From: an uncultured Nitrososphaerota archaeon
GTDB lineage: Archaea > Korarchaeota > Korarchaeia > Korarchaeales > Korarchaeaceae
Assembly: GCA_964594835.1 (NCBI GenBank)
Contig: CAZQNA010000001.1
Location: 96,001 to 160,000, forward strand
Length of the DNA: 64,000 nt
Reading direction: 5' to 3'
A program made the translations under genes and the position numbers. The notes under the pieces were generated by a model, which did not search any database, was not told the origin of the DNA, and saw nothing but the letters and a program-made list of their open reading frames with translations. Shown here piece by piece: positions 3,134-52,917 of the stretch (the first letter of the stretch is position 1; the number at the start of each line of letters is the position of its first letter).

Positions 3134-3263
3134 GGGGGGCTTAGCAGCTCCTGCGTTTCCCGGGCCCTTACGGAGCCCAGTACTCCGCAGGACGTGGCCG
3201 GGCTTAACTTCCGGGTTCGGAACGAGTCCGGGTGTGTCCCCGGCCACTATGGCCGCTCGCCCC
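3134..3263 (-). rRNA. rrf: 5S rRNA (stand-alone)
   Basis: Reverse complement reads GGCCATAG..ACACCCGGACTCGTTCCGAACCCGGAAGTTAAGCCC..GGAGTACTGGG..GGGAAAC..GCTGC, the archaeal 5S consensus; ends approximate. Confidence 0.96.
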
Positions 3264-23712: not shown

Positions 23713-24399
23713 TTGAGTTACGATCGAGTGGAGAGCCGTGTGTGGTGGCTGTTCGACGTGGATGACGTCCTATACGACGCAACGCTGCTGAAGAGGCTGG
23801 CCCGGGAGAACGCGGTCGTGGCCATGATAGAGGCCGGGCTGCCCGCCGACTTCGAACTCCTCCTCAGGAAGGTCAATGAGGTCGTGGAGGAGAGGGGGGA
23901 GGACTACACGAGGCACTTCGACGACGCGATAGCGGCCCTAGGGTTGAAGGTGGACCCGAGGGTCATCGCGGCCGGGGTGATAGCCTATCACGACACGAAG
24001 CGGGCGTTCCTGAGGCCCCTCCCGAGGGTCTTCAGGACTCTCCTCACGCTGAGGGACCGAGGGCACGGCCTGGCGCTATCCTCGCCTGGCAGCCCCGTCA
24101 AGGAGTGGGAGAAGGTCATCAGGCTCGGCCTCCATCACCTCTTCGAGGCGGCCTGGGTCGGAGAGCCCGATCGAGAGAGGCTCAGAGCCTCTCTCGATGA
24201 ACTCGGCGTCCGAGGGGACGGCTGCGTCTACGTGACCGCCAGGCCCGAGGGGGTCGACTCGGCCAAGGAACTCGGGATGAGGGCCGTGAGGGTCAGGAGG
24301 GGAAAGCGGGCGTCCGAGGACTCCTCTCAACAACCAGACCTCGAGGTGGTGTCGATTTGGGAGATCGCGGATCGTGCGGAAAGCCTTTTCAGAGAGTGA
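23713..24399 (+). CDS. HAD-superfamily hydrolase (archaeal TIGR02253-like)
   Basis: FDVDDVL, AAGVIAYH, WEKVIRLGL. Confidence 0.85.
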   Translation: MSYDRVESRVWWLFDVDDVLYDATLLKRLARENAVVAMIEAGLPADFELLLRKVNEVVEERGEDYTRHFDDAIAALGLKVDPRVIAAGVIAYHDTKRAFLRPLPRVFRTLLTLRDRGHGLALSSPGSPVKEWEKVIRLGLHHLFEAAWVGEPDRERLRASLDELGVRGDGCVYVTARPEGVDSAKELGMRAVRVRRGKRASEDSSQQPDLEVVSIWEIADRAESLFRE

Positions 24400-41802: not shown

Positions 41803-42456
41803 GTGGTGGCCGTGTACGAGATCGGCCCCGTGAAGGTGTCCTGGCTGGGTCACGCGGCCTTCAGGGTCTCGGACTCCGCCGTCGTTTACGTCGATCCCTA
41901 CGAGATTGCCGGGGGGAGGAGGGCCGACGTAGTGCTGATCACGCACGATCACTTCGATCACTGCTCTCCCGAAGACGTCGCCAAGATCGCGAGCCCCGAA
42001 ACCGTCATAGTGGCGCCCGCCCCGTGCCTCAAGAAGCTCGGCGGCCTCCCGGGCAGGAGAGCCGAGGTGTCTCCGGGGACAGAGGTGGACGTGGGCGGCG
42101 TCAAGATAAGGGCGATCCCGGCCTACAACGTGCGCCCCGAGAGGAGGAAGTTTCACCCCAGGGAGAAGGGATACGTCGGATACGTCTTCGAGCTGGACGG
42201 GGTGAAGGTGTACCACGCCGGCGACACCGACCTGATCCCGGAGATGGAGGGGCTCGAGGTCGACGTGGCCCTGCTCCCTGTGAGCGGCACCTACGTGATG
42301 GATCCGGAGGAGGCGGCGAGGGCGGCGGAGGCGATAGGACCGAGGGTCGCTATCCCGATGCACTACGGCTCCATCGTCGGATCCGAGAGGGACGCCCAGA
42401 GGTTCTCCGAGCTCGTGAGCTGCTGCGAGGTCGTCGTACTAAGGCCAGAGGACTGA
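41803..42456 (+). CDS. MBL-fold metallo-hydrolase
   Basis: WLGHA, THDHFDH, YHAGDT, IPMHY. Confidence 0.92.
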   Translation: MVAVYEIGPVKVSWLGHAAFRVSDSAVVYVDPYEIAGGRRADVVLITHDHFDHCSPEDVAKIASPETVIVAPAPCLKKLGGLPGRRAEVSPGTEVDVGGVKIRAIPAYNVRPERRKFHPREKGYVGYVFELDGVKVYHAGDTDLIPEMEGLEVDVALLPVSGTYVMDPEEAARAAEAIGPRVAIPMHYGSIVGSERDAQRFSELVSCCEVVVLRPED

Positions 42457-43044
42457 CCTCCAACCAGCCCTGGGGCTGGTCAAGGCGCCGAGGTAGAGCG
42501 CGGCGGCCTCCTCGAGAGCCTCCGCCCTGGCCGCGGCGATCTCCAGGGTCGGACCGAGCGTCACAGCCCCGTGTCGCTCTATTATGACTGCATTCGAGTC
42601 CCTCAGGGCGTTCGCCACGGCCTCTGCGAGCTCCCAGGTTCCGGCGCGCCTCCAGCGAATGCACCTGACGGCGCCCCCCAGGTAGATGACCCCCTCCTCC
42701 GACATCGGCCTCACCACCCCCGACGTCGTGCCGAGGGTGGTTGAAAGCGGCCCGTGAGTGTGGACCACTGCCCTCGCGTCTGTACGAGCCCTGTAGACGG
42801 CCGCGTGCATTCTCCACTCGGAAGAGGGCTTCCTGCCGGAGGTCTCCACCACCTCGCCGGAGGTGCTCATCAGGACGACGTCCGAGGGGGATAGCGTACC
42901 CTTGTGGGGGCCGGAGGGCGTGATCCAGAACATCTCATCGGAGACCCTGAAGCTCACGTTTCCCCCTGCCGCGGTGACCAGCCCCCGAAGGTACAGGAGT
43001 CTGGACACCCTCACCAGCTCCTCTCTGGGGTCCGCCAGGCTCAC
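42439..43044 (-). CDS. Class II aldolase/adducin family (FucA-like)
   Basis: GNVS, ITPSG, PSSEWRMH, VHTH, RHG; GTG start 43044. Confidence 0.92.
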   Translation of the reverse strand: MSLADPREELVRVSRLLYLRGLVTAAGGNVSFRVSDEMFWITPSGPHKGTLSPSDVVLMSTSGEVVETSGRKPSSEWRMHAAVYRARTDARAVVHTHGPLSTTLGTTSGVVRPMSEEGVIYLGGAVRCIRWRRAGTWELAEAVANALRDSNAVIIERHGAVTLGPTLEIAAARAEALEEAAALYLGALTSPRAGWRSVLWP

Positions 43045-43148
43045 CGAGGGTTTCCGAAGGCAGTCGAAAAAAGGGTTATTCGCGGCTGCCCCCCTCGAAA
43101 CCGCCCGGGGGCCGGAGTCAGAGTGAAAGGGGAAAGATGGGGGGAGGC

Positions 43149-44471
43149 TCACGGCCAGATGCCGCGGAGCCTCATGGCGGCGACTATCCTGTCGATGGCC
43201 AGCCAGTAGGCGGCGGTCCTCATGTCGATGTTCTTCTCCTTGTGGAGGTTGTAGATGTCCCTGAAGGACTTGGTCATCCTGGCCCTGAGCTTCTGCCTGA
43301 CGGTCTCGACGTCCCACCACTCCCTGGTCCTGGCCTGCACCCACTCGAAGTAGCTCACGGTCACGCCGCCCGCGTTGGCCAGCACGTCGGGTATGACGAG
43401 TATGCCCTTCTCGTGGAGCACGAGGTCGGCCTCGGGCGTGGTGGGGCCGTTGGCAGCCTCGGCCACGATCTTGGCCTTGATCCTGTCCGCGTTATCCTTG
43501 GTTATCACGTTCTCGATGGCGGCGGGGATGAGCACGTCGACGTCGAGCTCCAGGAGCTTGGCGTTGCCGACCCTCGGGTCGGGGTCGAGGTTGGTGGCGC
43601 CCGGGAAGTCCTTCACGCTGCCGGTCTCCCTCTTGTGCTTGAGCACCGCGTCGGGGTCGAGGCCGTCGGGGTTGTAGATCGCTCCCCTGCTGTCGCTGAC
43701 GGCCACCACCTTCATGCCGAGCTCGTGCATGAACTTGGCCGAGAAGTAGCCCGCGTTGCCGTAGCCCTGCACGGCGGCGGTCGCCTTCTTCGGGTCGATG
43801 TTCAGGACCTTGATGGCCTCCTCCACGGTGTACTGCAGGCCCCTGGCGGTCGCCTCCGTCCTGCCCTCGCTGCCGCCCAGCTCCAGCGGCTTGCCCGTGA
43901 TAACGCCGGGCTCGGGGTAGCCGACGATCTGGCTGTAGGTGTCGTAGATCCAGGCCATCTCCCTAGGGCTGGTGTAGACGTCGGGTGCGGGGATGTCCCT
44001 GTCGACGCCTATGATAGGGGCAATCGCCCAGGTGAACCTCCTGGTGAGCCTCTCGAGCTCGTTGAGGCTGAGCTTGTGCGGGTCAACCCTGATTCCGCCC
44101 TTGGATCCGCCGTAGGGGATGTCGACCACGGCGGTCTTGATGCTCATCCAGGCGGCGAGGGCCTTAACCTCGTCCTCGTTCACCGCGGGGTGGTACCTGA
44201 TGCCTCCCTTGCAGGGACCCCTAGCGTCGTTGTGCTGGACCCTCCATCCCACGAAGAGTTCAATGCTTCCGTCGTCCATCTTGACGGGCAGCTGGACCTC
44301 GAGGATCCTCTTGGGGGTGGCAAGTATCTTGTAATAGCCCGGGTCGAGGCCCATGATCTTGGCGGACCTCTCCAGCAGCTTCAGGAAGTTGAACCAGGGG
44401 TTCATTTCCGAGGGGGCGGCCCCTCCCGTAATCCGGAACATCTCCTCAGCAGATGGAATCACGGTCCCCAT
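43149..44471 (-). CDS. gdhA: Glutamate dehydrogenase
   Basis: RGPCKGGIRY, GGSKGG, PAPD, TGKP, QGYGNAG, EAANGP, NAGGVTVSYFEW; ATG 44471 has a GGTGA SD. Confidence 0.96.
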   Translation of the reverse strand: MGTVIPSAEEMFRITGGAAPSEMNPWFNFLKLLERSAKIMGLDPGYYKILATPKRILEVQLPVKMDDGSIELFVGWRVQHNDARGPCKGGIRYHPAVNEDEVKALAAWMSIKTAVVDIPYGGSKGGIRVDPHKLSLNELERLTRRFTWAIAPIIGVDRDIPAPDVYTSPREMAWIYDTYSQIVGYPEPGVITGKPLELGGSEGRTEATARGLQYTVEEAIKVLNIDPKKATAAVQGYGNAGYFSAKFMHELGMKVVAVSDSRGAIYNPDGLDPDAVLKHKRETGSVKDFPGATNLDPDPRVGNAKLLELDVDVLIPAAIENVITKDNADRIKAKIVAEAANGPTTPEADLVLHEKGILVIPDVLANAGGVTVSYFEWVQARTREWWDVETVRQKLRARMTKSFRDIYNLHKEKNIDMRTAAYWLAIDRIVAAMRLRGIWP

Positions 44472-44703
44472 GCCGGTCACCCTGCGGGCCGCGCCCGCGC
44501 TGTGTGTGTGGCGAGTTTTCATTAAAAAGATTGACACATTCCCTCGATCTCAGAGCTCTCATCCCCTCGTGCTGAGATGGTGGATTTAATCGGCTCAAGC
44601 AGTCGGATACTCGCCTGGACTGCTTAAAATTTGGATCTGAGGTTTTTGGGGGGACTCCCTGGAGGAATGATACGTTAATTTCCAACGGCTCGCCTAACAC
44701 CGA

Positions 44704-45930
44704 GTGTCCGCGCGCTCGAGGGTTCCACTTGTTGTGGCCAAGGGTCGGAGGACGGGGCCCGAGCACGAGGCGGCCGCACTAACCCTGTTCGCTTGGAAGA
44801 ATTCCAAGAGAGGTAGGTTTCCCTGGTCCAAGTTGGAGAAGCCGTGGGGGATAGGGATAGTCGAGCTGAGGCTTGATGTCCTCGAGGTCGGGGGGCGTTG
44901 GAGGGTCCTCTGGGATCCCTCTGGCCTCCTCTCCCTGAGGCTCTCGATGGCCGACAGGGAGTCGCTGGCCTCGGCGCTCAGCTTCCTGGAGGAGGCCATC
45001 GTGGCGAGCCCCGAGTCGCTCACGAAATCCGTTGAGTTCTCCTACTCCAGGATAAGGGCCTCCAGGAGGGAGCTAGAACTCACCGGAATCCCAGACCCCA
45101 GGATCATTAGCTGGGTTGCCTCTGAGGTCGGCGAACACGAGGGCCTCCCGGGCGGGGCGCTGCCGCCGTCCCTCAGTGAGAGGAGGGCTAGAGACACCTT
45201 CAGGGCCCTTAGGGAGATGGCCGGTGATCTGAGGAGGGATGTTGAGCTGATCAAGAGATATCGGGCCAAGCTGGAGGCGCTGATCAGCTCCGTGAGGAGT
45301 CTGGAGGAGTCGGAGAAGTCGGCGGTCTCCAGGGCGTACGCGGCCAGGCTCGCCGAGGCGGAGGTCCACCTCTCGGGCGATGAGCTCGCCCTTAGGAGGA
45401 GCCAGCTCAACTCAGAGCGGCAGGAGAGGATCTCGGAGATAGAATCCAAGTACGGCAGGCTCCTCGATGCCCTTGAAAATCTATCTCAGGAGCTGGAGGA
45501 GGAGCTGAAGTCGAGGGAGCTTATGATCTCCCTCAGCGAGCGCGCGGGGGAGGTTCAGCCAGCCTCGGTCCCTATGGGAATCGTCCTCTTCGGTCGCGGG
45601 AAGAGGCAGAGGCTTGAGATGCTCGCGCCCTGTGAGCTGACGGAGCCGGGCCTAGGAACCAAGCTGAGGAGGGTCTTCGGCGGTCGCCCGATCCCGCTGG
45701 AGCCGAGAGGCTGGGGAGAGGCCGTGGTCGCCAGGGTGAGGGAGGCCGCCGACGAGAGGAGCATGATACACTCCGGGCTCGTTACGATCGTGGAGAGGAA
45801 GAACCTCCTCCGGAGCCCCAACTTCGTTGAGCTCTCCGGCGCGGGCCTCCTGAAGTTCGCCGAGTGGGGCTACTTGCCGGATGAGTGGGTTGGAGAGGCC
45901 TTGGCCGTCGTCGTGGGTGAGGGCGAGTGA
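44704..45930 (+). CDS. Hypothetical protein with central coiled coil
   Basis: Fills the gap; heptad-rich middle; no motif recognised. Confidence 0.65.
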   Translation: MSARSRVPLVVAKGRRTGPEHEAAALTLFAWKNSKRGRFPWSKLEKPWGIGIVELRLDVLEVGGRWRVLWDPSGLLSLRLSMADRESLASALSFLEEAIVASPESLTKSVEFSYSRIRASRRELELTGIPDPRIISWVASEVGEHEGLPGGALPPSLSERRARDTFRALREMAGDLRRDVELIKRYRAKLEALISSVRSLEESEKSAVSRAYAARLAEAEVHLSGDELALRRSQLNSERQERISEIESKYGRLLDALENLSQELEEELKSRELMISLSERAGEVQPASVPMGIVLFGRGKRQRLEMLAPCELTEPGLGTKLRRVFGGRPIPLEPRGWGEAVVARVREAADERSMIHSGLVTIVERKNLLRSPNFVELSGAGLLKFAEWGYLPDEWVGEALAVVVGEGE

Positions 45931-45981
45931 TCCCCGAGATCCCTGGGGCGAGGCTTTTATCTCCAGACTCCGATGGGGTGA

Positions 45982-46048
45982 GGGGCCGATGAGGGTAGCT
46001 CGCTAGGTCCGCCGACCCGTGACGACCCTGGATCCCTCCCGAGGCCCC
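45982..46048 (+). ncRNA. C/D-like (K-turn) sRNA candidate convergent with the tmcA-ASCH operon
   Basis: GGGGCC/GGCCCC stem; C CGATGA 45987-45992, D' CCGA 46012-46015, C' GTGACGA 46019-46025, D CCGA 46039-46042; upstream CTTTTAT. Confidence 0.65.
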
Positions 46049-46060
46049 GCCCAGGACGTC

Positions 46061-46405
46061 TCACTCCCCAGATCCGTCCCCTTCCCCTTCGAGGACGCGA
46101 AACTCGATCATCCAGAGCTGGTCCTCCTCCAGGACCCTCTTACCGTAGTGTCTCTTGAGCGCCTTCACCAGCTCCTCCTTGGACTCGAACCCGTCCCTCC
46201 TGGCCTCCTCGTCGGTCAGCCCCGAGAGCCTCACCCTGGTGACCCCCTCGACAACGGCCTCCCCGAAGACCTCACCCCCGGCTACCAGGTCGACGACGTC
46301 CCCCGGCCTGAGCCTGGTGGTTCGCCTCAGGGTGGTCACCTTCTCCCCCCTGAGGATGCGGTCCACGTACCTCTTGTCAAACCTCAGCGACTTCCTCCTC
46401 CCCAT
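46061..46405 (-). CDS. ASCH-domain protein (YqfB-like)
   Basis: F...Y...I..GEKVTTLR (GxKxxTxR), LTDEEARRDGF. Confidence 0.9.
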   Translation of the reverse strand: MGRRKSLRFDKRYVDRILRGEKVTTLRRTTRLRPGDVVDLVAGGEVFGEAVVEGVTRVRLSGLTDEEARRDGFESKEELVKALKRHYGKRVLEEDQLWMIEFRVLEGEGDGSGE

Positions 46406-48656
46406 AGTGGACCACCAGCTTCCTGACCGCCCCCCGTACGACGTCCATGACCTCGACCACCTTCTTAACCTTCAGGAGCCCCGCCACCATGCCCCACCCC
46501 CTACCCTGAAGGACCCTGGCCAGCAGAGCAGCCTCCTCCTCAGCCGAGAGGGGCCTGACCTTCGGAGGGGAGAGGAAGTAGGACCTGACGATCTCCCAGA
46601 CCGCGTCGGACGCCATCTCGTAGGTGTTGTACCCCGCCAGGTAGTCCCTTAGCCTGAGCTTCTGACTGAACCTGAGCCTCGGCCTCGCGCCTCCCCAGCT
46701 CGGAGACAGGAGCATCCTGGCGACCCAGGGGGACAGATCGAAGTACACGTCGTGCAGGGAGTTCAGGAGTCTCCTCTTGAACTCCCCCAGTATCTCACGC
46801 ACCATGTCCCGAGCCTGCCTGCTGATCGGGAGCACGACGAACACGCTGTACTCTCCCGAGACAGGGTTCCTCTGCGGGCTGATGTGCACGGGCACGAAGC
46901 CCGCCCTCACCCAGAACCTGAGGAGTTCCTCGCTGACTCCGAACCCCGCCCCGACCCAGTCTACCCCGGCCTCCTCAGCCTCGGAGATCAGGGACCTGAG
47001 CGCCCTCGTCCCCAGGCCCCTGCCCTGAAGGGCCGGATGGGTGGCTATGCGGACCACCCTCCAGCCCCAGAGCTTCGGGAATCCCTTGTGGCCGTAGTGT
47101 GCCAGGAGCCTCGAGGGTATCATGTGACCGGGGGGATTCTCTGTCCTCCTGAGGATGCCCTCCACGTACCTCCTGCTGAGCCTCCCCTCCTCGCATATCT
47201 GAATTGAGACTACGGGCTCGCCGTCGATCAACAGGGCCCTCGCGGAGTGGTGGGGCGCGTCCAGGAGTGTCGCCAGGTCGTTGGGCCTGTTCCTGTAGTG
47301 AGCCAGGACGTATATCCCGTAGAACTTCCTGAGGAAGTCCTCGTCCGCCGATGGGAGGTCCACCCTGACGTACCTCCCCGACTCCGGGGACGCGTCCTCG
47401 GGGGGATCCCCAGGCTCCGCGTCGAGCAGCAGGAAGTCGTAAAGCCACCTCTCAACCGGGTCCCCCTCGGGGTACCTTATCGGGGTCCTCATCTCCACCC
47501 TCTCGACGGCCACACCCTGAAGCGACTCGAGCCTCGACATGAACCTCTGAGAGAAACCCCTGCCGGCCCCCTCGTACCCGTGGATTGTGCTGGAGAAGAT
47601 CGCGAGCCTGCTGGACCCGAGCACCCTGAAGAGCAGGTGCGTCGGGATGCCGGCCGCCTCGTCAACCACCTTCACCCGGACGTTAGAGTCCACTAGGCTC
47701 AGGGGAGTCAGGTAGAAGGCCGACCTCCCCCTGGCGGTCACCGCCACGACCTCTCCATCCCTCACCACCTCCCGGCCCCGTATCCCCAGGGCCTCCAGGC
47801 CCCTTGAGACGAACTTGAACAGGGTCTGAACCGCGGGGAGTGTGGGGGCCGTGACCGCCACCCCCCTGACCCCCCTCCTCGCCATTAGGTGGGCTATCCC
47901 GAGCCCGAGAGCGGCGGACTTTCCCCTCCCCCTGTTCGCCACCACGAGGAGGGCCGCCCTCCCGGAGACCCTCGAGAGCCTGTCGATGGCCTCCACCACC
48001 TCGACCTGCTCGGGGGTCAGTGCGAGCGCCAGTACGGGGTCCTCCGATTCGGGCCGCTCGAGCTCCCTCCTGGCGGCCTCTCTTGGGCGCCCCTCAACGC
48101 TTCCCGAGGACAGGTCGACGAACCTCGCCCCCTCAGCCCTCCTGACGGTCTCTAGGAACCTCCTCTTGAACTCGCTCCTGACGTCGGACTCTCTGTAGGG
48201 GGGCGACGCCAGCCTCCTCTGGAAGTCGGTCAGGGTTCTGAGCCACTCCTCGACTGGGGGTATCGCCATCACGACGAGCCCGCCCCCCCTGACGGTCTCC
48301 ACAAGTCTCCCCACGTCATTCGCCCTCATCTGGACGGAGAAGTCCGTCAGGAGGAGATCCCAGGTTCCCCCCATGGCCTCCTCGCTCCTGTCAAAGTCTA
48401 TTGGGTGGACGCGGACGTCTCCGGGCACCTGGCTGGCGAGCCTTCGACCGCCCAGCACCTCGTCCCCAACCCAGACGTTGGAGTAGAGGGCGTCGACCCC
48501 CTGGCCAGTGACCCGCCGGTAGACCCTGGCCACCCTTGCCAGGGCGTCCACCCGATCCTCGCAGGAGACGAGGAGCAACCTCCGCTCTCCACTGGCCACG
48601 GCCTCCGCGCTGAGTTCTGCTGCCACCTCCTCGACGAGGTCGCCCAAGATGATCAC
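46377..48656 (-). CDS. tmcA: RNA cytidine acetyltransferase TmcA/Nat10
   Basis: ETVRGGG, RGRGKSAALG, DEAA, TIHGYEGAGRGF, AHYRNRPNDL, GNAT RIATHPALQGRGLG. Confidence 0.95.
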   Translation of the reverse strand: MIILGDLVEEVAAELSAEAVASGERRLLLVSCEDRVDALARVARVYRRVTGQGVDALYSNVWVGDEVLGGRRLASQVPGDVRVHPIDFDRSEEAMGGTWDLLLTDFSVQMRANDVGRLVETVRGGGLVVMAIPPVEEWLRTLTDFQRRLASPPYRESDVRSEFKRRFLETVRRAEGARFVDLSSGSVEGRPREAARRELERPESEDPVLALALTPEQVEVVEAIDRLSRVSGRAALLVVANRGRGKSAALGLGIAHLMARRGVRGVAVTAPTLPAVQTLFKFVSRGLEALGIRGREVVRDGEVVAVTARGRSAFYLTPLSLVDSNVRVKVVDEAAGIPTHLLFRVLGSSRLAIFSSTIHGYEGAGRGFSQRFMSRLESLQGVAVERVEMRTPIRYPEGDPVERWLYDFLLLDAEPGDPPEDASPESGRYVRVDLPSADEDFLRKFYGIYVLAHYRNRPNDLATLLDAPHHSARALLIDGEPVVSIQICEEGRLSRRYVEGILRRTENPPGHMIPSRLLAHYGHKGFPKLWGWRVVRIATHPALQGRGLGTRALRSLISEAEEAGVDWVGAGFGVSEELLRFWVRAGFVPVHISPQRNPVSGEYSVFVVLPISRQARDMVREILGEFKRRLLNSLHDVYFDLSPWVARMLLSPSWGGARPRLRFSQKLRLRDYLAGYNTYEMASDAVWEIVRSYFLSPPKVRPLSAEEEAALLARVLQGRGWGMVAGLLKVKKVVEVMDVVRGAVRKLVVHYGEEEVAEV

Positions 48657-48666
48657 CCAACCGCGG

Positions 48667-49398
48667 TCACAGCGCCAGACCGAGGGCCGTCGGGGCGAAC
48701 TTGAGCAGGACCAGCGCCGCGGCCAGGGAGGCCGACCTACCCCTACTCAGGCCAAACATCGTCCTGAGGAGTTCCGTGAGGAGGAACCACTGCCAGGCCG
48801 CCACCAGGCCGGAGAGGGAGAGCATGACGGGAGAGCGCTCCACCAGGCTGGTCACCTCCCCGACCTGCGAGGAGTACGGGTTGGATAGGTCTATCGTGAT
48901 CACGACCCTCTGCGGGATCGTCAAGGCCGTAGCGATCACGCTCAGGAGAGACCTAACGCCCTCGGTCAGGTAGACCACGCCAAACCCGGTTAGGGTGGAG
49001 GATGGGCTCACCGGGTCGCCTCCAGCGAGCCTCGCCGCGACGTGAACGAGCCCCCCGGCGATGAAAGCGACGACGACCCCGGAGACCACCGTGGTGACCC
49101 CGACGAACGCCGGGCCGCTGAAAACCCTCAGGGCGGACTGGATCTGCTCGGCGCTCACGCCCTCCGGCGGGTTGACGAACCGGTACTCCACCCTCGACGC
49201 GATCAGCGCGCCTCCGGCGCCCCCAAGCGCCGAGACCGCCAGAGCGGCCATCAGGAACAGCCTCAGCCTGGGCCGACTGAGGCCCCCCCTGAAGACGGAC
49301 CACGGATCTCGGACCGGGGAGAGGAGGTACTTGATCGGCCCGACGCTCTCCCCTGCACGGGCCTCGCCGACCTCGAACTCCCCGCCCCCCTGGGACAT
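48667..49398 (-). CDS. Yip1-family membrane protein
   Basis: About 5 TM helices with an N-terminal P..vF motif; start ATG 49398. Confidence 0.65.
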   Translation of the reverse strand: MSQGGGEFEVGEARAGESVGPIKYLLSPVRDPWSVFRGGLSRPRLRLFLMAALAVSALGGAGGALIASRVEYRFVNPPEGVSAEQIQSALRVFSGPAFVGVTTVVSGVVVAFIAGGLVHVAARLAGGDPVSPSSTLTGFGVVYLTEGVRSLLSVIATALTIPQRVVITIDLSNPYSSQVGEVTSLVERSPVMLSLSGLVAAWQWFLLTELLRTMFGLSRGRSASLAAALVLLKFAPTALGLAL

Positions 49399-49449
49399 CG
49401 TGCCGCCCCCCTGAGTCGACTTAAAAAGGCCGGGGGGGCGACGCACACC

Positions 49450-49524
49450 GGGGGCGGGCGATGATTAGAGCGAACATCATTCGAAGGGAGGATGTGAATC
49501 CCAGCTCACGCTGAGTCCGCCCCC
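49450..49524 (+). ncRNA. Double-guide C/D-box sRNA predicted to target 23S rRNA U2552 and A2577 (E. coli numbering)
   Basis: 10-bp terminal stem; C CGATGA, D' TCGA 49481-49484, D CTGA 49511-49514; guides GCGAACA and CCCAGCTCACG complement conserved 23S UGUUCGC and CGUGAGCUGGG; TATA CTTAAAAA at 49420. Confidence 0.88.
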
Positions 49525-49553
49525 CACGGTTTAACCTGATCCGACGCGATAAG

Positions 49554-50150
49554 TTGAATAGCCTCCCAGCCCAGGCTCCAACCGTGAGGTCGGTAGATCT
49601 CCACAGGGAGTCCGCCAGGTCCAGGCTGACCTTCGCGGTGTTCGTCGTCAGCTCCTCGAGGTACGAGTTGAAGTCCCGGGGGGAGGCCTTCGTCGACGAG
49701 AGCGGAGACGTGGCGGTCAGCCTCATAGAGTCGGCTGGCCACGTCGTCGTGAGGAGGGACATCCTCCCCGACTCGGTCCCGGAGATAGGGGAGGCGCTGA
49801 GGGCCGCCGCCGGCAGCGCGGACGTGGTCCTCTTCATCGGCGGTACGGGTCCCCACCCGAGGGACGTCACGGTCGAGGCCGTCCGACCCGCGTTCTCCAA
49901 GGAACTACCCGGCTTCGGGGAGCTCTTCAGGATGCTCAGCTACGAGCAGGTGGGGCCCGCTGCCTTCCTGTCGAGGGCCACGGCGGGCGTGGTCGAGGGG
50001 TCCGTGGTCTTCTGCCTCCCAGGCTCCCCTGACGGGATAAGGCTCGCCCTCGAGAGGCTCATCCTGCCCGAGGCGGAGCACGCCGTCTGGGTGGCGAGGG
50101 GCTACAGGCACGCTCACGGCTCGGGTCGCCAAGACGACCCGGGGGGCTGA
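49554..50150 (+). CDS. moaB: Molybdopterin adenylyltransferase, MoaB/MogA family
   Basis: VSSSR..DESG, GGTG..RDVT.EA, PGFGE.FR, SRATAG, LPGSP. Confidence 0.92.
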   Translation: MNSLPAQAPTVRSVDLHRESARSRLTFAVFVVSSSRYELKSRGEAFVDESGDVAVSLIESAGHVVVRRDILPDSVPEIGEALRAAAGSADVVLFIGGTGPHPRDVTVEAVRPAFSKELPGFGELFRMLSYEQVGPAAFLSRATAGVVEGSVVFCLPGSPDGIRLALERLILPEAEHAVWVARGYRHAHGSGRQDDPGG

Positions 50151-50152
50151 GC

Positions 50153-52156
50153 TCAGCCGACCCGGGGGTCGTGGATTATCTCCCCGGTCCTTTCGTCCGC
50201 CTCTATGCCGGGTAGCCTGCTTAGGGCCTCGCGGAACTCGTCGGACCTTAGGGTCTCGAGGACGACCTGGACCCCGCGCTTCGAAAGGCGGTCGATCCTC
50301 ACCAAGAAGTCGTACCGCTCCCTCCAGAGGGGTATGAAGTCCAGCCCCCTCAGCCTCGCGGCCGCCTCTATCCCGGGGCCGATGTCCACGATCCCTTCCC
50401 TGACCGCCGAGGCCACCGCCGCGTGGGACTTCGCGGCGCTCATGTACCCCCGGATCGACGACCTCAGCTCCTCCGCGCTCACCCCCCTCTCCCCTGCCAA
50501 CCTCTCGGTCAGCCAGTCCATCAGGATCCTGGTTCCCGAGCCCGGGTTTCTGTTCAGCATCCTGACGTCGGGCCTCAGGAGGTCCTCCACTCCCCCTATT
50601 CCCTTGGGGTTCCCGGGGGCGACCATCAGGCCCTGGATCCTCGAGTACCCCCTGACGAGCAGGGCGATCTTGGACACGCCCATGGGCTCGAGGAACGGGA
50701 GGTTGTACTCGCCCGTGGTCGGATCCAGGGCGTGGACCCCGGCCAGGTCGGCCTCCCCCTTCCTCACGGCCAGGAACCCGCCCGTCGAGCCCACGGAGAC
50801 CACCTTCACCCTGCCCCCCCTGAGCCTCGGCCTCGCGATCCTGAGGAGCTCCTCCAGCCCGAGGCAGTGGCTCCCCACGATGGACAGGTCCGCAGGCCCC
50901 CTGTCCGGGTCTAGGAGGGTGACCACCACTGGCTCGCCCTCCTCCAGGTACTCCACCTCCTCCGGCACTTCTAGGATCCCGTCGGCCCGGGCAAACGTGG
51001 TTATGGCCTCAGAGCCACCGGGAACCTTGAACGCCAGCACCTCGCCCTCGGCCGTCCTCACGAGGTGCACCGGGAGGAAGTCCCGCCTCCCCCTGGCGAC
51101 CCTGGTCCTCTCGGCCAGCTTGGCCCTGACCCTCAGGGACTCAGGCTCGGGCTCCAGTCCGGCCAGGTACCTGATCACGGGCGCGACGAACACCCTGTAG
51201 GCGGTCATCGCGCTGGTCGGGTTGCCTGGCAGTCCGAAGGCGAGCTTTCTGCCGACCTGAGCCATGACGGTGGGCTTCCCCGGGTGCATGGCCACGCCGT
51301 GGACGAACACCCCGGGCGCCCCGATCCCGTCCAGCACCCTGTAGATGACATCCCCCGCCCCCGCGCTGGTGCTTCCCGAGACGACGAGGAGGTCTGCCAC
51401 CGACAGCCCCCTCTCGATCGCCCCCGCTATCTCAGACTCCACGTCGCCGACTATACCAAGGTAGATGGGTTCCCCCCCGTCCCCCCTTATGGAGGCGCAG
51501 AGGGCCGGGCCGTTTATGTCGTAGATCCTCCCGTACTCGAGGTCCTCCCCCTGAGCGGCCAGCTCGTCTCCAGTGCTGATCACGGCGACCCTCGGCCGGG
51601 AGTAGACCCTCACGGTCCGGATGCCGGCGGCGGCCAGCACGCCGACCTCCCTCGGCCCGACGACGTCTCCCCTCCAGGCCAGGGTCTCTCCGAGGTTGAC
51701 GTCCCTGCCGGCGGACTGGACGTTCTCGCCGGGCGCGACGGCCCTGTACACGAGGACCTCTCCACCAGACCGGCGGGTGTACTCGACCATCACGACCGCG
51801 TCGGCCCCCGGGGGCAGGGGCGCCCCAGTCGCTATCTCGACGGCCTCACCCTCCCCCACCGACCCGCTGAAGGGGTGGCCGGCCGAGGCCACTCCCACGA
51901 CCCTGAGCGCCGCGGGCCTCTCCTCGTCTGCCCCGAAGGTGTCCTCCGCGCGCACCGCGAACCCGTCCTTGGTGGCCCTGTCGAAGCTGGGGATGTCCAC
52001 CGGGGACACCACGTCCTCCGCCAGCACCCTGCCCAGCGCCTCGGAGAGCGTGACCTCCTCCACCCTCCTTTTCATCTCCCGAACGCGGGACCAGATCTCA
52101 TCCCTGGCCCCGTCTACAGAGCTGAGCCTCCTGAAGATCCTCCTATCTTCCCTCAT
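50153..52156 (-). CDS. moeA: MoeA with C-terminal periplasmic-binding-protein-like domain
   Basis: DGFAV, TGA.LP.GADAVV, STGDEL, PGKP, GLPGNP, then GSHC, GSTGG, NRNPGSGTR; start ATG 52156. Confidence 0.93.
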   Translation of the reverse strand: MREDRRIFRRLSSVDGARDEIWSRVREMKRRVEEVTLSEALGRVLAEDVVSPVDIPSFDRATKDGFAVRAEDTFGADEERPAALRVVGVASAGHPFSGSVGEGEAVEIATGAPLPPGADAVVMVEYTRRSGGEVLVYRAVAPGENVQSAGRDVNLGETLAWRGDVVGPREVGVLAAAGIRTVRVYSRPRVAVISTGDELAAQGEDLEYGRIYDINGPALCASIRGDGGEPIYLGIVGDVESEIAGAIERGLSVADLLVVSGSTSAGAGDVIYRVLDGIGAPGVFVHGVAMHPGKPTVMAQVGRKLAFGLPGNPTSAMTAYRVFVAPVIRYLAGLEPEPESLRVRAKLAERTRVARGRRDFLPVHLVRTAEGEVLAFKVPGGSEAITTFARADGILEVPEEVEYLEEGEPVVVTLLDPDRGPADLSIVGSHCLGLEELLRIARPRLRGGRVKVVSVGSTGGFLAVRKGEADLAGVHALDPTTGEYNLPFLEPMGVSKIALLVRGYSRIQGLMVAPGNPKGIGGVEDLLRPDVRMLNRNPGSGTRILMDWLTERLAGERGVSAEELRSSIRGYMSAAKSHAAVASAVREGIVDIGPGIEAAARLRGLDFIPLWRERYDFLVRIDRLSKRGVQVVLETLRSDEFREALSRLPGIEADERTGEIIHDPRVG
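51989..52061. repeat. 73-bp perfect direct repeat, copy 1
   Basis: Identical to 54009-54081. Confidence 0.95.
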
Positions 52157-52917
52157 ACGATCCCCCACGCCTGCAGCGCCATCCTGATCGCCACCAGCAT
52201 GAGGAAGGCGGCGAATATGCGTCTGACCGTCGTCCCCCTCAGCCCCATGGTCTTCTTGGCGCCCGCCCTGGCTCCCAGGACGAGGCCCGCCGCCGTTATC
52301 AGGGCGATGAGGGGGTGCCCCCGGCCCTCCATGTAGTGGGTCGTCGCCCCCACGGAGGACGTTATGGCGATCATGAACATGGAGGTGGCGACCGCCGTCT
52401 TGGCCCCCAGGCCGCAGACCAGGACCAGTATGGGGACCTTGATGGTCCCTCCCCCTATGCCCAGGAGTCCGCTGAACGCCCCCGCGAGGAAGGACACGCC
52501 CATCGCGACCGCTAGCCTCGAACACCCCCTCCCAACGCCGTCGTCCGAGCCCCCGCGCCTCCGGAGCATGTTCACCGAGACCACCCCGAGGACGACGGCG
52601 AAGGCCATCCTCAGCGCCCTCTCCGGGACCGCCGTCACCGCCCTGGCCCCCGCGTAGGCTCCGATTGTCGTGGTGAGTTCAAGCGTGATGCCCAGCCTGT
52701 AGTCGATGAGGTCCCTGTACACGAGGATGGAGCTCAGGGCCGTGAGCGGCATGGTCATGAGGCTGGTGGCGACGGCAGACTTCATGTCCATCCCGAGCAC
52801 CAGGCTGTAGAGGGGGACCAGCAGAGTACCGCCGCCCGTCCCCGTCATGGCGCTCACGGCCCCTATCCCCAGTCCGCCGACCGCCGCGAGCAGAACCCTC
52901 AGGTCCACTCTCTCCAC
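52153..52917 (-). CDS. TauE/SafE family sulfite exporter
   Basis: Duplicated G.GGG..VP motifs, AVATS, about 8 TM. Confidence 0.92.
   Translation of the reverse strand: MERVDLRVLLAAVGGLGIGAVSAMTGTGGGTLLVPLYSLVLGMDMKSAVATSLMTMPLTALSSILVYRDLIDYRLGITLELTTTIGAYAGARAVTAVPERALRMAFAVVLGVVSVNMLRRRGGSDDGVGRGCSRLAVAMGVSFLAGAFSGLLGIGGGTIKVPILVLVCGLGAKTAVATSMFMIAITSSVGATTHYMEGRGHPLIALITAAGLVLGARAGAKKTMGLRGTTVRRIFAAFLMLVAIRMALQAWGIV

What the first reader, a model, noticed from the sequence alone, without database searches (positions are those of the whole stretch)
46061..48656. ac4C writer (TmcA/Nat10) coupled to a YqfB-like ASCH candidate eraser or reader
Seen: the ASCH ORF overlaps the 3' end of tmcA by 29 nt on the same strand. 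Known: TmcA/Nat10 makes N4-acetylcytidine, abundant and temperature-responsive in hyperthermophilic archaeal RNA, and E. coli ASCH protein YqfB is an ac4C amidohydrolase using Lys/Thr/Arg of the GxKxxTxR motif plus a downstream Glu. Seen: GEKVTTLR keeps K, T and R, with Asp (ARRDGF) at the apparent Glu position. Inference: a writer plus eraser/recycler/reader module for reversible RNA acetylation in archaea.
Basis: partly seen in the sequence, partly recalled or inferred. Interest (0 to 1): 0.75.

Follow-up and report, generated by a model that had tools for sequence, protein, structure and literature searches.

The report
RNA acetylase gene coupled to deacetylase gene
An archaeal gene for the enzyme that acetylates cytidine in RNA overlaps a small downstream gene whose product most likely removes that acetyl group, a real and widely conserved pairing that two 2026 preprints have already described in outline.

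Summary
A 759-aa TmcA/Nat10 gene (46377..48656, minus) and a 114-aa ASCH gene (46061..46405, minus) overlap by 29 nt. GEKVTTLR and the Asp of ARRDGF align with YqfB K21/T24/R26 and E74.

The linkage is not limited to this genome. ASCH lies directly 3' of tmcA in 16 of 26 related genomes that have both genes. It also does so in 21 of 80 tmcA loci from across Archaea. The start nearly always overlaps the tmcA stop.

The ASCH protein belongs to a basic, archaeal, YqfB-like subfamily. K, T and R are invariant in 45 of 45 sequences, and its best structural and profile match in the PDB is E. coli YqfB.

The most likely function is an ac4C amidohydrolase co-produced with the writer. Sequence alone cannot settle whether it acts on RNA-borne or free ac4C.

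The idea is already in print. One preprint states that YqfB-clade ASCH genes form operons with TmcA/Nat10. Another shows archaeal ASCH proteins deacetylating ac4C in vitro. This is a new member of a known kind, of moderate interest.

The parts
46377..48656 (-). tmcA/Nat10-type RNA cytidine N4-acetyltransferase gene (759 aa; GTG start as listed, TGA stop)
   Evidence: ORF. Pfam TmcA_N, NAT10_TcmA_helicase and GNAT_acetyltr_2. NCBIfam TmcA (haloarchaeal equivalog) scores 471.7 bits, below its cut-off of 700. It is 34-57% identical to the seven other TmcA sequences aligned.
47916..47930 (-). Walker A / P-loop GRGKS of the TmcA helicase-like ATPase domain (residues 243-247)
   Evidence: R242, G243, R244, G245, K246 and S247 are invariant in the 8-sequence TmcA alignment A2. 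The sequence is visible.
47010..47027 (-). GNAT acetyl-CoA-binding loop QGRGLG of TmcA (residues 544-549)
   Evidence: H540, P541, G547, G549 and L553 are invariant in A2. The loop lies in the stretch matched by the general GNAT models PF00583 (residues 531-566) and PF13508 (532-588), just inside the best GNAT_acetyltr_2 stretch (446-557). Naming this loop the acetyl-CoA site is from general knowledge of GNAT enzymes.
46377..46405 (-). 29-nt overlap of the tmcA 3' end with the ASCH 5' end (ASCH ATG inside the last codons of tmcA)
   Evidence: The same 29-nt overlap occurs in the 3 fetched same-genus loci and in 4 loci of genus g2. The overlap is 4 nt (ATGA) in g6 and g7, and 8 nt in g8 and g10.
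46061..46405 (-). ASCH-domain gene (114 aa), YqfB-like GK[T/S]R subfamily; predicted N4-acetylcytidine amidohydrolase
   Evidence: Pfam ASCH E 4.1e-16. AlphaFold2 model with pLDDT 86.5. Foldseek top hit is YqfB 9kyf. The profile search against the PDB gives YqfB at E 2.6e-10. It is the only ASCH match in the genome.
46325..46348 (-). ASCH octapeptide GEKVTTLR (residues 20-27): K22 (predicted base), T25 (predicted nucleophile), R27 (predicted oxyanion hole)
   Evidence: These residues align with YqfB K21, T24 and R26. They are invariant in 41/41 and 45/45 subfamily sequences. The roles are those proposed for YqfB in PMC6972931.
46187..46195 (-). DGF motif (D71-G72-F73); D71 sits at the position of YqfB Glu74 (predicted acid)
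   Evidence: Alignment. D/E in 41/41 sequences of A1. In locus-derived sequences: D in 40, A in 2, E in 1, and 2 truncated.

Best explanation
tmcA and the ASCH gene form a two-gene, translationally coupled unit. It makes the ac4C writer and, in a fixed proportion, a small YqfB-like amidohydrolase that hydrolyses the N4-acetyl group of ac4C to cytidine plus acetate.

The predicted chemistry follows YqfB. K22 acts as base, T25 as nucleophile, D71 as acid (in place of Glu74) and R27 as oxyanion hole.

For this basic archaeal subfamily I favour action on ac4C that is still in RNA. That means exposed or off-target sites in tRNA, rRNA and other RNAs, so the pair would set a dynamic steady state or edit the acetylation pattern. 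Free ac4C released by RNA breakdown would be hydrolysed as well.

Shown here: gene identities, the overlap, conservation of the linkage, conservation of the residues, and the fold.

Inferred: the enzymatic activity (by homology to YqfB and to archaeal GKTR-type ASCH proteins assayed in a preprint), co-transcription, translational coupling, and RNA rather than free nucleoside as the physiological substrate.
For: Linkage:
- ASCH lies directly 3' of tmcA on the same strand in 16 of 26 related genomes that have both genes.
- The start overlaps the tmcA stop in 13 of 13 junctions I could resolve.
- 21 of 80 tmcA loci from named archaeal records have the same arrangement, mostly overlapping by 4 to 50 nt.
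- In the ASCH tree, the unlinked genes of genus g3 form one clade nested among linked korarchaeal genes. This points to one loss of an older linkage.

Enzyme:
- Foldseek's top hit is YqfB 9kyf/9kyh (TM 0.76/0.84, rmsd 1.6 A).
- The subfamily profile hits YqfB at E 2.6e-10, against 0.0046 for the next solved ASCH.
- K, T and R are conserved in 45/45, Asp in 40/43 and Tyr87 in 43/43.
- In YqfB, K21A, T24A and R26A are inactive and E74A lowers kcat 100- to 1000-fold (PMC6972931, passages).
- Archaeal GKTR ASCH proteins from A. fulgidus and P. kukulkanii were reported active on ac4C both as nucleoside and in tRNA (bioRxiv 10.64898/2026.02.27.708502, sections 22 and 25 and passages).

RNA-level action:
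- 37 of 41 subfamily members have pI of 9 or more.
- The ASCH core net charge has a median of +7 and is positive in 39 of 41.
- In korarchaeal family f4, the tmcA-linked gene is a roughly 200-aa form. Its C-terminal extension weakly matches that of the roughly 190-aa archaeal forms (E 7e-6 to 7e-4 in a 10-sequence database). The preprint reports that a C-terminal HTH of such archaeal forms binds tRNA.

Phyletic pattern: 26 of 27 genomes with an ASCH match also have tmcA. The exception is a weak hit, E 6.6e-4.
Against: - No activity was measured for this protein, and no expression data could be found.
- It fails the NCBIfam YqfB equivalog cut-off (24.9 bits against 93). His70 of YqfB is Glu67 here, and Glu74 is Asp. 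Two linked genus-g7 proteins have Ala at that position.
- A writer and an RNA eraser made together would waste ATP and acetyl-CoA in a futile cycle.
- E. coli yqfB deletion does not change RNA ac4C (as reported).
- The EOLA1 preprint finds action on free ac4C and not on cellular RNA. It reads the YqfB-TmcA operons only as showing that YqfB-clade proteins operate on ac4C generated by this acetyltransferase.
- The window protein itself has no HTH, and its whole-protein pI is only 8.0 (core 9.7).
- tmcA occurs without any ASCH match in genus g5 (4 genomes) and in G039, and no ASCH hit lies beside tmcA in the Thermococcus, Desulfurococcales, Thermofilaceae and Thermoproteaceae loci examined. The partner is therefore dispensable to the writer.
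- A high pI is common in small proteins of thermophiles.
Confidence: 0.42

Rival explanations
1. Salvage only. The ASCH protein is an ac4C nucleoside or nucleotide amidohydrolase. It clears free ac4C released when TmcA-modified RNA is degraded, so that cytidine can re-enter pyrimidine metabolism. It does not touch intact RNA in the cell. Coupling to tmcA simply scales recycling capacity to writing capacity.
For: - YqfB kinetics favour free N4-acyl cytidines (kcat/Km up to 2.8e6 M-1 s-1, abstract of PMC6972931).
- YqfB lacks RNA binding, and its deletion leaves RNA ac4C unchanged.
- EOLA1 acts on free ac4C and not on cellular RNA, and N4-acetylation blocks cytidine deaminase (bioRxiv 10.64898/2026.08.01.741249, passages).
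- Co-production with the writer causes no futile cycle under this reading.
- The genome has nucleoside-salvage enzymes: five PNP_UDP_1 matches and one CDA-family deaminase.
- The fold and residue evidence cited for the best explanation applies equally here.
Against: - The strongly basic character of the archaeal subfamily is unexplained for a nucleoside enzyme (37/41 with pI of 9 or more; core charge median +7).
- So are the longer forms with a C-terminal extension in the same operon position.
- Archaeal GKTR ASCH proteins removed ac4C from tRNA in vitro and in E. coli.
- No uridine/cytidine kinase (PF00485) match was found in this 97%-complete genome.
Confidence: 0.36
2. Non-catalytic reader or adaptor. 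The ASCH domain has a PUA-like RNA-binding fold. It would bind RNA or ac4C and serve TmcA as a specificity or product-release factor, as Tan1/THUMPD1 helps eukaryotic Nat10 on tRNA (that comparison is recalled, not tested).
For: - Conserved stop/start overlap suggests proportionate synthesis, as is often seen for subunits of a complex.
- The subfamily has basic surface composition.
- The ASCH superfamily includes nucleic-acid binders such as TRIP4 and ZmASCH (as reviewed).
Against: - The exact residues needed for YqfB catalysis are invariant (K, T and R in 45/45). A mere binder would not need this.
- Every ASCH protein assayed in the preprint was catalytically active on ac4C.
- tmcA occurs without ASCH in several lineages.
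Confidence: 0.08
3. Another substrate or activity. The protein would hydrolyse a different N4-acyl cytosine compound, or act as a ribonuclease like ZmASCH. The tmcA linkage would reflect only a shared theme of RNA metabolism.
For: - YqfB accepts structurally different N4-acylated cytosines and cytidines (abstract of PMC6972931).
- ZmASCH is an ssRNA ribonuclease (as described).
- The protein fails the YqfB equivalog cut-off.
Against: - The structural match to ZmASCH is much weaker (E 8e-4, TM 0.64/0.52) than to YqfB (E 2e-7, TM 0.76/0.84).
- The only acyl-cytidine known to be made by the adjacent enzyme is ac4C.
- The linkage recurs in at least five class-level lineages.
Confidence: 0.06
4. 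The adjacency has no functional meaning and arose by chance, or the small ORF is not a gene.
For: The genome is compact and GC-rich, and such genomes contain many overlapping spurious ORFs (one search lists 44 ORFs of at least 60 aa overlapping the 9-kb span 43000..52000).
Against: - The ORF has a full-length Pfam ASCH match.
- It has 339 homologues at E<=1e-3 among 1.84 billion representative proteins.
- It gives a confident fold.
- The same gene order occurs in 16 related genomes and in 21 of 80 further loci.
Confidence: 0.01

Closest known systems
E. coli YqfB, N4-acetylcytidine amidohydrolase (PDB 9kyf/9kyg/9kyh, 1te7; PMC6972931)
   Same: Both are stand-alone ASCH domains of about 100 aa. 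YqfB is the best structural hit (TM 0.76/0.84, rmsd 1.6 A, 27% identity) and the best profile hit (E 2.6e-10). The GxKxxTxR octapeptide has K, T and R in register, and Tyr87 aligns with Tyr89.
   Different: - It scores only 24.9 bits against the NCBIfam YqfB equivalog (cut-off 93).
- It has Asp for Glu74 and Glu for His70.
- The subfamily is basic, whereas YqfB is reported not to bind nucleic acid.
- Here the gene overlaps the writer gene. I did not examine the E. coli yqfB locus.
YqfB-clade ASCH / TmcA-Nat10 operons noted in bioRxiv 10.64898/2026.08.01.741249 (EOLA1 preprint)
   Same: This is the same association. [quoted passage not shown] S1a)' (passage).
   Different: The figure and supplements were not visible to me. 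I cannot say which taxa it shows, or whether it notes korarchaeal examples, the conserved stop/start overlap, the derived loss of linkage in genus g3, or the long forms with a C-terminal extension in the same position.
Archaeal GKTR-type ASCH proteins (Afu2ASCH, Afu3ASCH, Pku2ASCH, Pku4ASCH) of bioRxiv 10.64898/2026.02.27.708502
   Same: They share the octapeptide class (GK[T/S]R) and the archaeal origin. They are reported active on ac4C as nucleoside and in tRNA. Some carry a C-terminal HTH that binds tRNA. Archaeoglobi loci in my set carry a 110-115-aa ASCH directly after tmcA (L106, L108, L113, L118).
   Different: Accession numbers are in supplements that I could not open. It is therefore not shown that any assayed protein is the tmcA-linked orthologue. 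That preprint does not contain the words 'neighbo', 'genomic context', 'adjacent' or 'co-locali', so it does not report the linkage.
Human EOLA1 and TRIP4-like ASCH clade (GKER octapeptide)
   Same: They share the ASCH fold and the Lys/Arg of the octapeptide, and have ac4C deacetylase activity.
   Different: They have Glu instead of Thr at the third motif position and belong to a different clade. The structural match is much weaker (5y7d, E 9e-3).
Writer and eraser genes kept in one operon, such as CheR methyltransferase / CheB methylesterase of bacterial chemotaxis
   Same: Opposing modifying activities are co-expressed to give a dynamic steady state. This is an analogy from general knowledge, recalled and not tested.
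   Different: The substrate there is a protein rather than RNA, and the families are unrelated.

Membership tests
ASCH domain superfamily (Pfam PF04266) | Match to the family profile above the curated cut-off | tested here: met
   E 4.1e-16, 60 bits against a cut-off of 21.2, covering profile positions 1-103 of 103.
ASCH domain superfamily (Pfam PF04266) | PUA-like beta-barrel fold | tested here: met
   The AlphaFold2 model has pLDDT 86.5. The Foldseek hits at E<=1e-3 are all ASCH or DUF984-type chains: YqfB, PH0355, TTHA0113, L. crispatus ASCH, EF3133, PF0455 and ZmASCH.
YqfB-type ac4C amidohydrolase (NCBIfam NF003443 equivalog) | Score above the equivalog cut-off | tested here: not met
   24.9 bits against a cut-off of 93. 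The protein is not filed as a YqfB equivalog.
YqfB clade / GK[T/S]R octapeptide group of ASCH | Octapeptide GxKxx[T/S]xR with Lys, Thr/Ser and Arg | tested here: met
   GEKVTTLR, with K22, T25 and R27 in register with YqfB K21, T24 and R26. These are invariant in 45/45 subfamily sequences.
YqfB clade / GK[T/S]R octapeptide group of ASCH | Acidic residue at the Glu74 position (proposed general acid) | tested here: inconclusive
   Asp71 replaces Glu. D/E in 41/41 sequences of A1. However, Ala occurs in two linked genus-g7 proteins.
YqfB clade / GK[T/S]R octapeptide group of ASCH | His70 and Tyr89 of YqfB | tested here: inconclusive
   Tyr87 aligns with Tyr89 and is present in 43/43. His70 is Glu67 here. 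In YqfB, H70A costs only about tenfold.
YqfB clade / GK[T/S]R octapeptide group of ASCH | Closer to YqfB than to other solved ASCH proteins | tested here: met
   The profile gives E 2.6e-10 for YqfB against 0.0046 for the next chain. Foldseek gives E 2.3e-7 against 1.4e-5.
YqfB clade / GK[T/S]R octapeptide group of ASCH | Hydrolysis of N4-acetylcytidine | not testable with these tools
   This needs an enzyme assay. It is inferred from homologues only.
TmcA / Nat10 RNA cytidine acetyltransferase | Three-part architecture: TmcA_N, helicase-like ATPase and GNAT | tested here: met
   PF08351 (residues 14-181), PF05127 (238-412) and PF13718 (446-557 and a second stretch).
TmcA / Nat10 RNA cytidine acetyltransferase | Walker A P-loop and GNAT acetyl-CoA loop intact | tested here: met
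   GRGKS at 243-247 and QGRGLG at 544-549 include residues invariant in the 8-sequence alignment A2.
TmcA / Nat10 RNA cytidine acetyltransferase | NCBIfam equivalog cut-off (haloarchaeal model NF041296) | tested here: not met
   471.7 bits against a cut-off of 700, with full-length coverage 2-740 of 746. The model is lineage-specific. I read this as an orthologue outside that lineage, which is inference.
Conserved tmcA-ASCH operon | ASCH directly 3' of tmcA on the same strand in several lineages | tested here: met
   16 of 26 related genomes. 21 of 80 tmcA loci, of which 2 lack enough downstream sequence to judge.
Conserved tmcA-ASCH operon | Co-transcription | not testable with these tools
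   No RNA run was listed for this stretch. The overlap of 4-50 nt leaves no room for a separate promoter outside tmcA, which is inference.

The most novel reading that the evidence does not exclude
The writer and the deacetylase are made in a fixed ratio by translational coupling and act together on RNA as an editing pair. TmcA acetylates cytidines broadly. The basic ASCH enzyme strips the acetyl group from exposed or wrongly placed ac4C, so only structurally protected sites stay modified. Temperature-dependent RNA folding would then set the temperature-dependent acetylation pattern seen in hyperthermophiles. The forms with a C-terminal extension in the same operon position would be tRNA-directed versions of the same editor.
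Probability: 0.18. Interest if true: 0.75.

Novelty: new member of a known kind. Interest (0 to 1): 0.36.

Why it matters
Whether RNA acetylation is reversible, and by what enzyme, is an open question. It matters especially in hyperthermophilic archaea, where ac4C is abundant and changes with temperature.

This locus shows that the ASCH partner is not a one-off. It is an old companion of the archaeal writer, translationally coupled to it, and kept in at least five class-level lineages. That is independent genomic support for the ac4C-deacetylase assignment of the archaeal YqfB-like ASCH subfamily.

It also gives a defined pair of genes to test together, both for RNA eraser against nucleoside salvage and for a possible editing role.

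It does not open a new category. The activity and the operon association were both stated in 2026 preprints.

Tried and rejected
- **Complex prediction.** Complex prediction on TmcA (alignment A2) with ASCH (alignment A1) gave no verdict: score 0.18 against a mark of 0.32, and controls were not run. It says nothing either way about binding.
- **Expression.** The look-up of sequencing runs for RNA holders of window 45900-48800 listed none.
- **Locus search with the ASCH alignment.** I used the TmcA alignment A2 instead. That samples tmcA loci, not ASCH loci.
- **Earlier findings.** The search of earlier findings returned nothing for this place.
- **Context of the unlinked ASCH genes.** In genus g3 the gene sits between an ACT/DUF711 pair and a thioredoxin-reductase-like flavoprotein. 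In G037 it sits beside another ASCH paralogue or a HAD hydrolase. Neither gives a functional lead.
- **Upstream and downstream genes.** The upstream Yip1-domain gene ends 10 nt before tmcA, and a 408-aa ORF converges on the pair. Both are conserved only within the genus, so they are not part of the conserved module.
- **Salvage enzymes in the genome.** These do not discriminate between the eraser and salvage readings.
- **Identity of the assayed Archaeoglobus proteins.** I could not establish whether any is the tmcA-linked orthologue. The accessions are in closed supplements.
- **Sensitivity limit.** The ASCH HMM used on the 80 loci was built from this subfamily. Divergent GKER-type ASCH genes next to tmcA could be missed at E<=1e-3.
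Full report
**1. The observation**

The window has two minus-strand ORFs at the stated coordinates. One is a 759-aa ORF at 46377..48656. The other is a 114-aa ORF at 46061..46405.

The ATG of the small ORF is at 46405-46403. It lies 29 nt inside the end of the large ORF, whose TGA ends at 46377.

Pfam assigns TmcA_N, NAT10_TcmA_helicase and GNAT_acetyltr_2 to the large ORF. It gives a full-length ASCH match (E 4.1e-16) to the small one. NCBIfam gives TmcA at 471.7 bits, below the 700-bit cut-off of a haloarchaeal equivalog model. For the small ORF it gives the YqfB equivalog NF003443 at only 24.9 bits, against a cut-off of 93.

The octapeptide GEKVTTLR is residues 20-27. In the phmmer alignment with E. 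coli YqfB (9kyf, E 0.029), K22, T25 and R27 align with K21, T24 and R26, and D71 of ARRDGF aligns with E74. A profile of the subfamily gives the same register at E 2.6e-10.

This is also the only ASCH-domain match in the 1.82-Mb, 97%-complete genome.

**2. The organism**

The window's phylum holds only 43 species genomes in the collection searched. The closest named TmcA relatives carry the titles 'Thermoproteota archaeon' and 'Candidatus Methanodesulfokora washburnensis'. I take the lineage to be korarchaeal. That is inference, and the lineage name is recalled rather than given by a tool. G+C is 63-68% across the window.

**3. Linkage within the phylum**

I searched 41 genomes (G000 and 40 relatives) with each protein.
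- 27 have an ASCH match and 32 have a TmcA match.
- 26 have both.
- In 16 of those 26, the ASCH match lies directly 3' of tmcA on the same strand.

The 16 are:

| Genus (family) | Linked genomes |
|---|---|
| g1 | 5 of 5 |
| g2 | 5 of 5 |
| g6 (f2) | G025 |
| g7 (f3) | G027, G028 |
| g8 (f4) | G029 |
| g9 (f4) | G030 |
| g10 (f5) | G031 |

The 10 unlinked cases are nine genomes of genus g3 and G037, which belongs to another phylum. In genus g5, four genomes have tmcA but no ASCH match. G007 and several distant genomes have neither.

I fetched 13 of the linked loci (G002 and G015 were not fetched). I resolved the junction in the window and in 12 of these loci.
- The overlap is 29 nt in the window, in the three other g1 loci and in four g2 loci.
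- It is 4 nt (ATGA) in g6 and g7.
- It is 8 nt in g8 and g10. L029 also has an alternative ATG that would give 29 nt.
- In L031 the end of tmcA is cut by the contig end.

The stop/start overlap is thus a conserved feature. It points to co-transcription and translational coupling, which is inference.

**4. Linkage outside the phylum**

A scan of one genome per species with a TmcA alignment kept 80 tmcA loci with about 3 kb of flank. An HMM built from the ASCH alignment A1 hit 23 of the 80 at E<=1e-3.
- 21 hits are directly downstream on the same strand.
- One is 2 kb downstream (L057, a 220-aa open frame, about 198 aa from its ATG).
- One is upstream and divergent (L104).

In most of the 21, the start overlaps the tmcA stop by 4 to 50 nt. 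L084 abuts it, L048 is 43-70 nt away, and L047 is ambiguous. Two loci, L087 and L097, have too little downstream sequence to judge.

By record title, the linked loci are distributed as follows:

| Group (by record title) | Linked / examined |
|---|---|
| Bathyarchaeia | 6 of 10 |
| Archaeoglobi (Ferroglobus, Archaeoglobus, Geoglobus, one Archaeoglobales) | 4 of 5 |
| Nezhaarchaeales/-ota | 2 of 2 |
| Methanomethylicota | 1 of 1 |
| Ca. Alkanophaga | 1 of 1 |
| Loci of genomes already counted in section 3 (L041 and L043 titled 'Thermoproteota archaeon', L042 'uncultured archaeon') | 3 |
| Titled 'uncultured' archaeon, bacterium or Nitrososphaerales (L047, L084, L088, L099) | 4 |
| Thermococcus/Thermococci | 0 of 6 |
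| Desulfurococcales-type | 0 of 14 |
| Thermofilaceae | 0 of 6 |
| Thermoproteaceae/Thermoproteales/Vulcanisaeta | 0 of 5 |
| Nanoarchaeota-type | 0 of 4 (one not judgeable) |

The HMM is subfamily-specific, so a divergent ASCH type next to tmcA could be missed.

In a maximum-likelihood tree of 43 ASCH sequences, the unlinked g3 genes form one well-supported clade nested beside linked g2 and g6 genes (96/85). The label 'linked' needs only 4 changes, against a mean of 11.4 under shuffling. The simplest reading is an old linkage that was lost once in g3. The tree is of a 100-aa protein, has weak deep branches and only a midpoint root, so no more is claimed.

**5. The ASCH protein**

A search of 1.84 billion representative proteins found 339 relatives at E<=1e-3 and 68 at E<=1e-10. 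They are either about 105-125 aa or about 180-200 aa long.

Conservation:
- In an alignment of the best 40 plus the window protein, K22, T25, R27, L79 and L83 are invariant. F9, G20, G35, A50, D71, G72, F73, Y87 and F102 are at 90% or more.
- Among 45 distinct ASCH sequences taken from the loci, K, T and R are present in 45 of 45.
- The Asp is present in 40. It is Ala in the two g7 proteins and Glu in Alkanophaga, and two sequences are truncated.
- Tyr87 is present in 43 of 43.

Structure: the AlphaFold2 model is confident (pLDDT 86.5). Its best PDB match is YqfB, both apo and with ac4C bound (TM 0.76/0.84, rmsd 1.6 A over 102 columns, 27% identity). Other ASCH structures follow at lower scores.

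Published mutagenesis of YqfB: K21A, T24A and R26A are inactive. E74A lowers kcat 100- to 1000-fold, H70A tenfold and Y89A threefold. The proposed mechanism is Lys as base, Thr as nucleophile, Glu as acid and Arg as oxyanion hole (PMC6972931, abstract and passages of the mutagenesis and structure sections). Here His70 is replaced by Glu67.

Charge: unlike YqfB, the archaeal subfamily is basic. 37 of 41 members have pI of 9 or more. The core net charge has a median of +7 and is positive in 39 of 41. The window protein has pI 8.0 overall and 9.7 without its acidic tail.

Long forms: in family f4, the tmcA-linked gene is a roughly 200-aa form. Its C-terminal extension weakly resembles that of the 190-aa forms (E 7e-6 to 7e-4 in a 10-sequence database).

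**6. What is in print**

I made six literature searches. Two 2026 preprints bear directly on this finding.

*bioRxiv 10.64898/2026.02.27.708502.* I read the abstract, sections 22 and 25, and passages.
- It assayed 19 ASCH proteins, including ones from Archaeoglobus fulgidus and Pyrococcus kukulkanii.
- It reports that all remove ac4C from tRNA in vitro.
- It defines GKER and GK[T/S]R octapeptide groups.
- It describes an archaeal C-terminal HTH that binds tRNA.
- It does not contain the words 'neighbo', 'genomic context', 'adjacent' or 'co-locali'. Its one 'operon' refers to another enzyme. It therefore does not report the tmcA linkage.

*bioRxiv 10.64898/2026.08.01.741249.* I read passages only.
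[quoted passage not shown] S1a)'.
- It argues that EOLA1 and YqfB act on free ac4C, for salvage, and not on cellular RNA.

I could not see Fig. S1a or any supplement. I therefore cannot say which taxa were shown, or which assayed Archaeoglobus protein (if any) is the tmcA-linked one. A search for ac4C + Thermococcus + ASCH found nothing.

**7. Mechanism**

The enzyme-level reading is that the ASCH protein is an ac4C amidohydrolase acting on the product of the adjacent writer. I put this at about 0.8 overall. It rests on fold, invariant catalytic residues, homologues with measured activity, and linkage conserved across distant lineages.

The physiological substrate is open.
- *For RNA-borne ac4C:* the basic character of the subfamily, the long forms with a C-terminal extension in the same operon slot, and the reported tRNA deacetylation by archaeal GKTR proteins.
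- *For free ac4C only:* the futile-cycle argument, the YqfB kinetics and knockout data, and the EOLA1 results.

I give RNA-level action 0.42 and salvage only 0.36. A non-catalytic reader or adaptor gets 0.08, another substrate or activity 0.06, and chance 0.01. The genome has nucleoside phosphorylases and a CDA-family deaminase but no PRK-type kinase match. This does not discriminate between the readings.

**8. Verdict**

Its stated refutation, linkage limited to this genome, fails.

The kind is already known from the 2026 preprints, so this is a new member of a known kind. Four details may or may not be in the figure I could not see:
- the breadth of the linkage across archaeal classes;
- the near-universal stop/start overlap;
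- the single derived loss of linkage in genus g3;
- the long forms with a C-terminal extension in the operon position.

Interest is moderate (0.36). It would be higher only if the pair turns out to act as an RNA-editing couple.

Noticed in passing
window 48667..49446 (-): A 259-aa Yip1-domain membrane protein gene (PF04893, E 1.7e-6, 28.5 bits, just under the 28.6 cut-off) ends 10 nt upstream of the tmcA start. It is conserved at that position only in same-genus genomes (63% identity in L021, L022 and L041, where L022 and L041 are the same G004 contig) and not in other linked loci. It may be co-transcribed with tmcA-ASCH in this genus.
   Followed up: partly
window 44704..45930 (+): A 408-aa ORF with no Pfam match converges on the ASCH gene. 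It is coiled-coil-like and rich in Glu, Arg and Leu by eye. It is conserved at 54-55% identity at the same position in same-genus genomes only. Its function is unknown.
   Followed up: partly
G022:C21:9900-10342 (relative genome, genus g3): The only TmcA matches in this 92%-complete genome are two short fragments with in-frame TAG stops. The genome also has no ASCH match. This could be co-loss of writer and partner, or an assembly artefact.
   Followed up: no
L016, L017 (G027, G028; genus g7): The tmcA-linked ASCH proteins of this genus have Ala instead of the otherwise conserved Asp at the position of YqfB Glu74, and Tyr instead of Phe two residues later. They sit on a long branch (1.36) in the tree. 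The catalysis may be altered or lost, or the alignment register may shift there.
   Followed up: no
L035 632-3311 and L037 955-3692 (genus g3): Where ASCH is not next to tmcA, it is packed between an ACT-domain gene plus a DUF711 gene and a thioredoxin-reductase-like flavoprotein gene. The gene ends abut or overlap. A second DUF711-like gene lies nearby on the other strand.
   Followed up: partly
L039 1743-2656 (G037): Two ASCH genes lie in tandem on one strand, overlapping by 4 nt. One is a 189-aa long form and the other a 115-aa short form. A third long-form ASCH elsewhere in the genome sits next to a HAD hydrolase and a PAP2 phosphatase (L040). tmcA is about 160 kb away from either.
   Followed up: no
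window 50153..52525 (-) and 49554..50150 (+): There is a 790-aa ORF as listed from its first start codon. Its MoeA-type domains (MoeA_N, MoCF_biosynth, MoeA_C) are fused to a C-terminal PBP-like domain. The first 130 or so residues have no match and may lie upstream of the true start. It is next to a divergently oriented 198-aa MoCF_biosynth (MogA/MoaB-like) gene.
   Followed up: no
window 43149..44537 (-) and 42439..43344 (-): A glutamate/leucine/phenylalanine/valine dehydrogenase gene (462 aa) and a class II aldolase gene are present. The aldolase domain begins only at residue 108 of the listed 301-aa ORF, and the two listed ORFs overlap by about 200 nt. The aldolase start is therefore probably further downstream.
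   Followed up: no
window 3139..3260 (-) and 24145..24229 (+): A 5S rRNA gene (83.7 bits) and a tRNA-Leu(CAG) gene are the only structured RNA genes detected in the window.
   Followed up: no
L047 5237-5578: In this 'uncultured archaeon' locus, the tmcA reading frame stays open about 200 nt past the end of the TmcA match. It therefore overlaps most of the first two thirds of the ASCH ORF in another frame. This could be a true long overlap, a sequencing frameshift, or a C-terminal extension.
   Followed up: no
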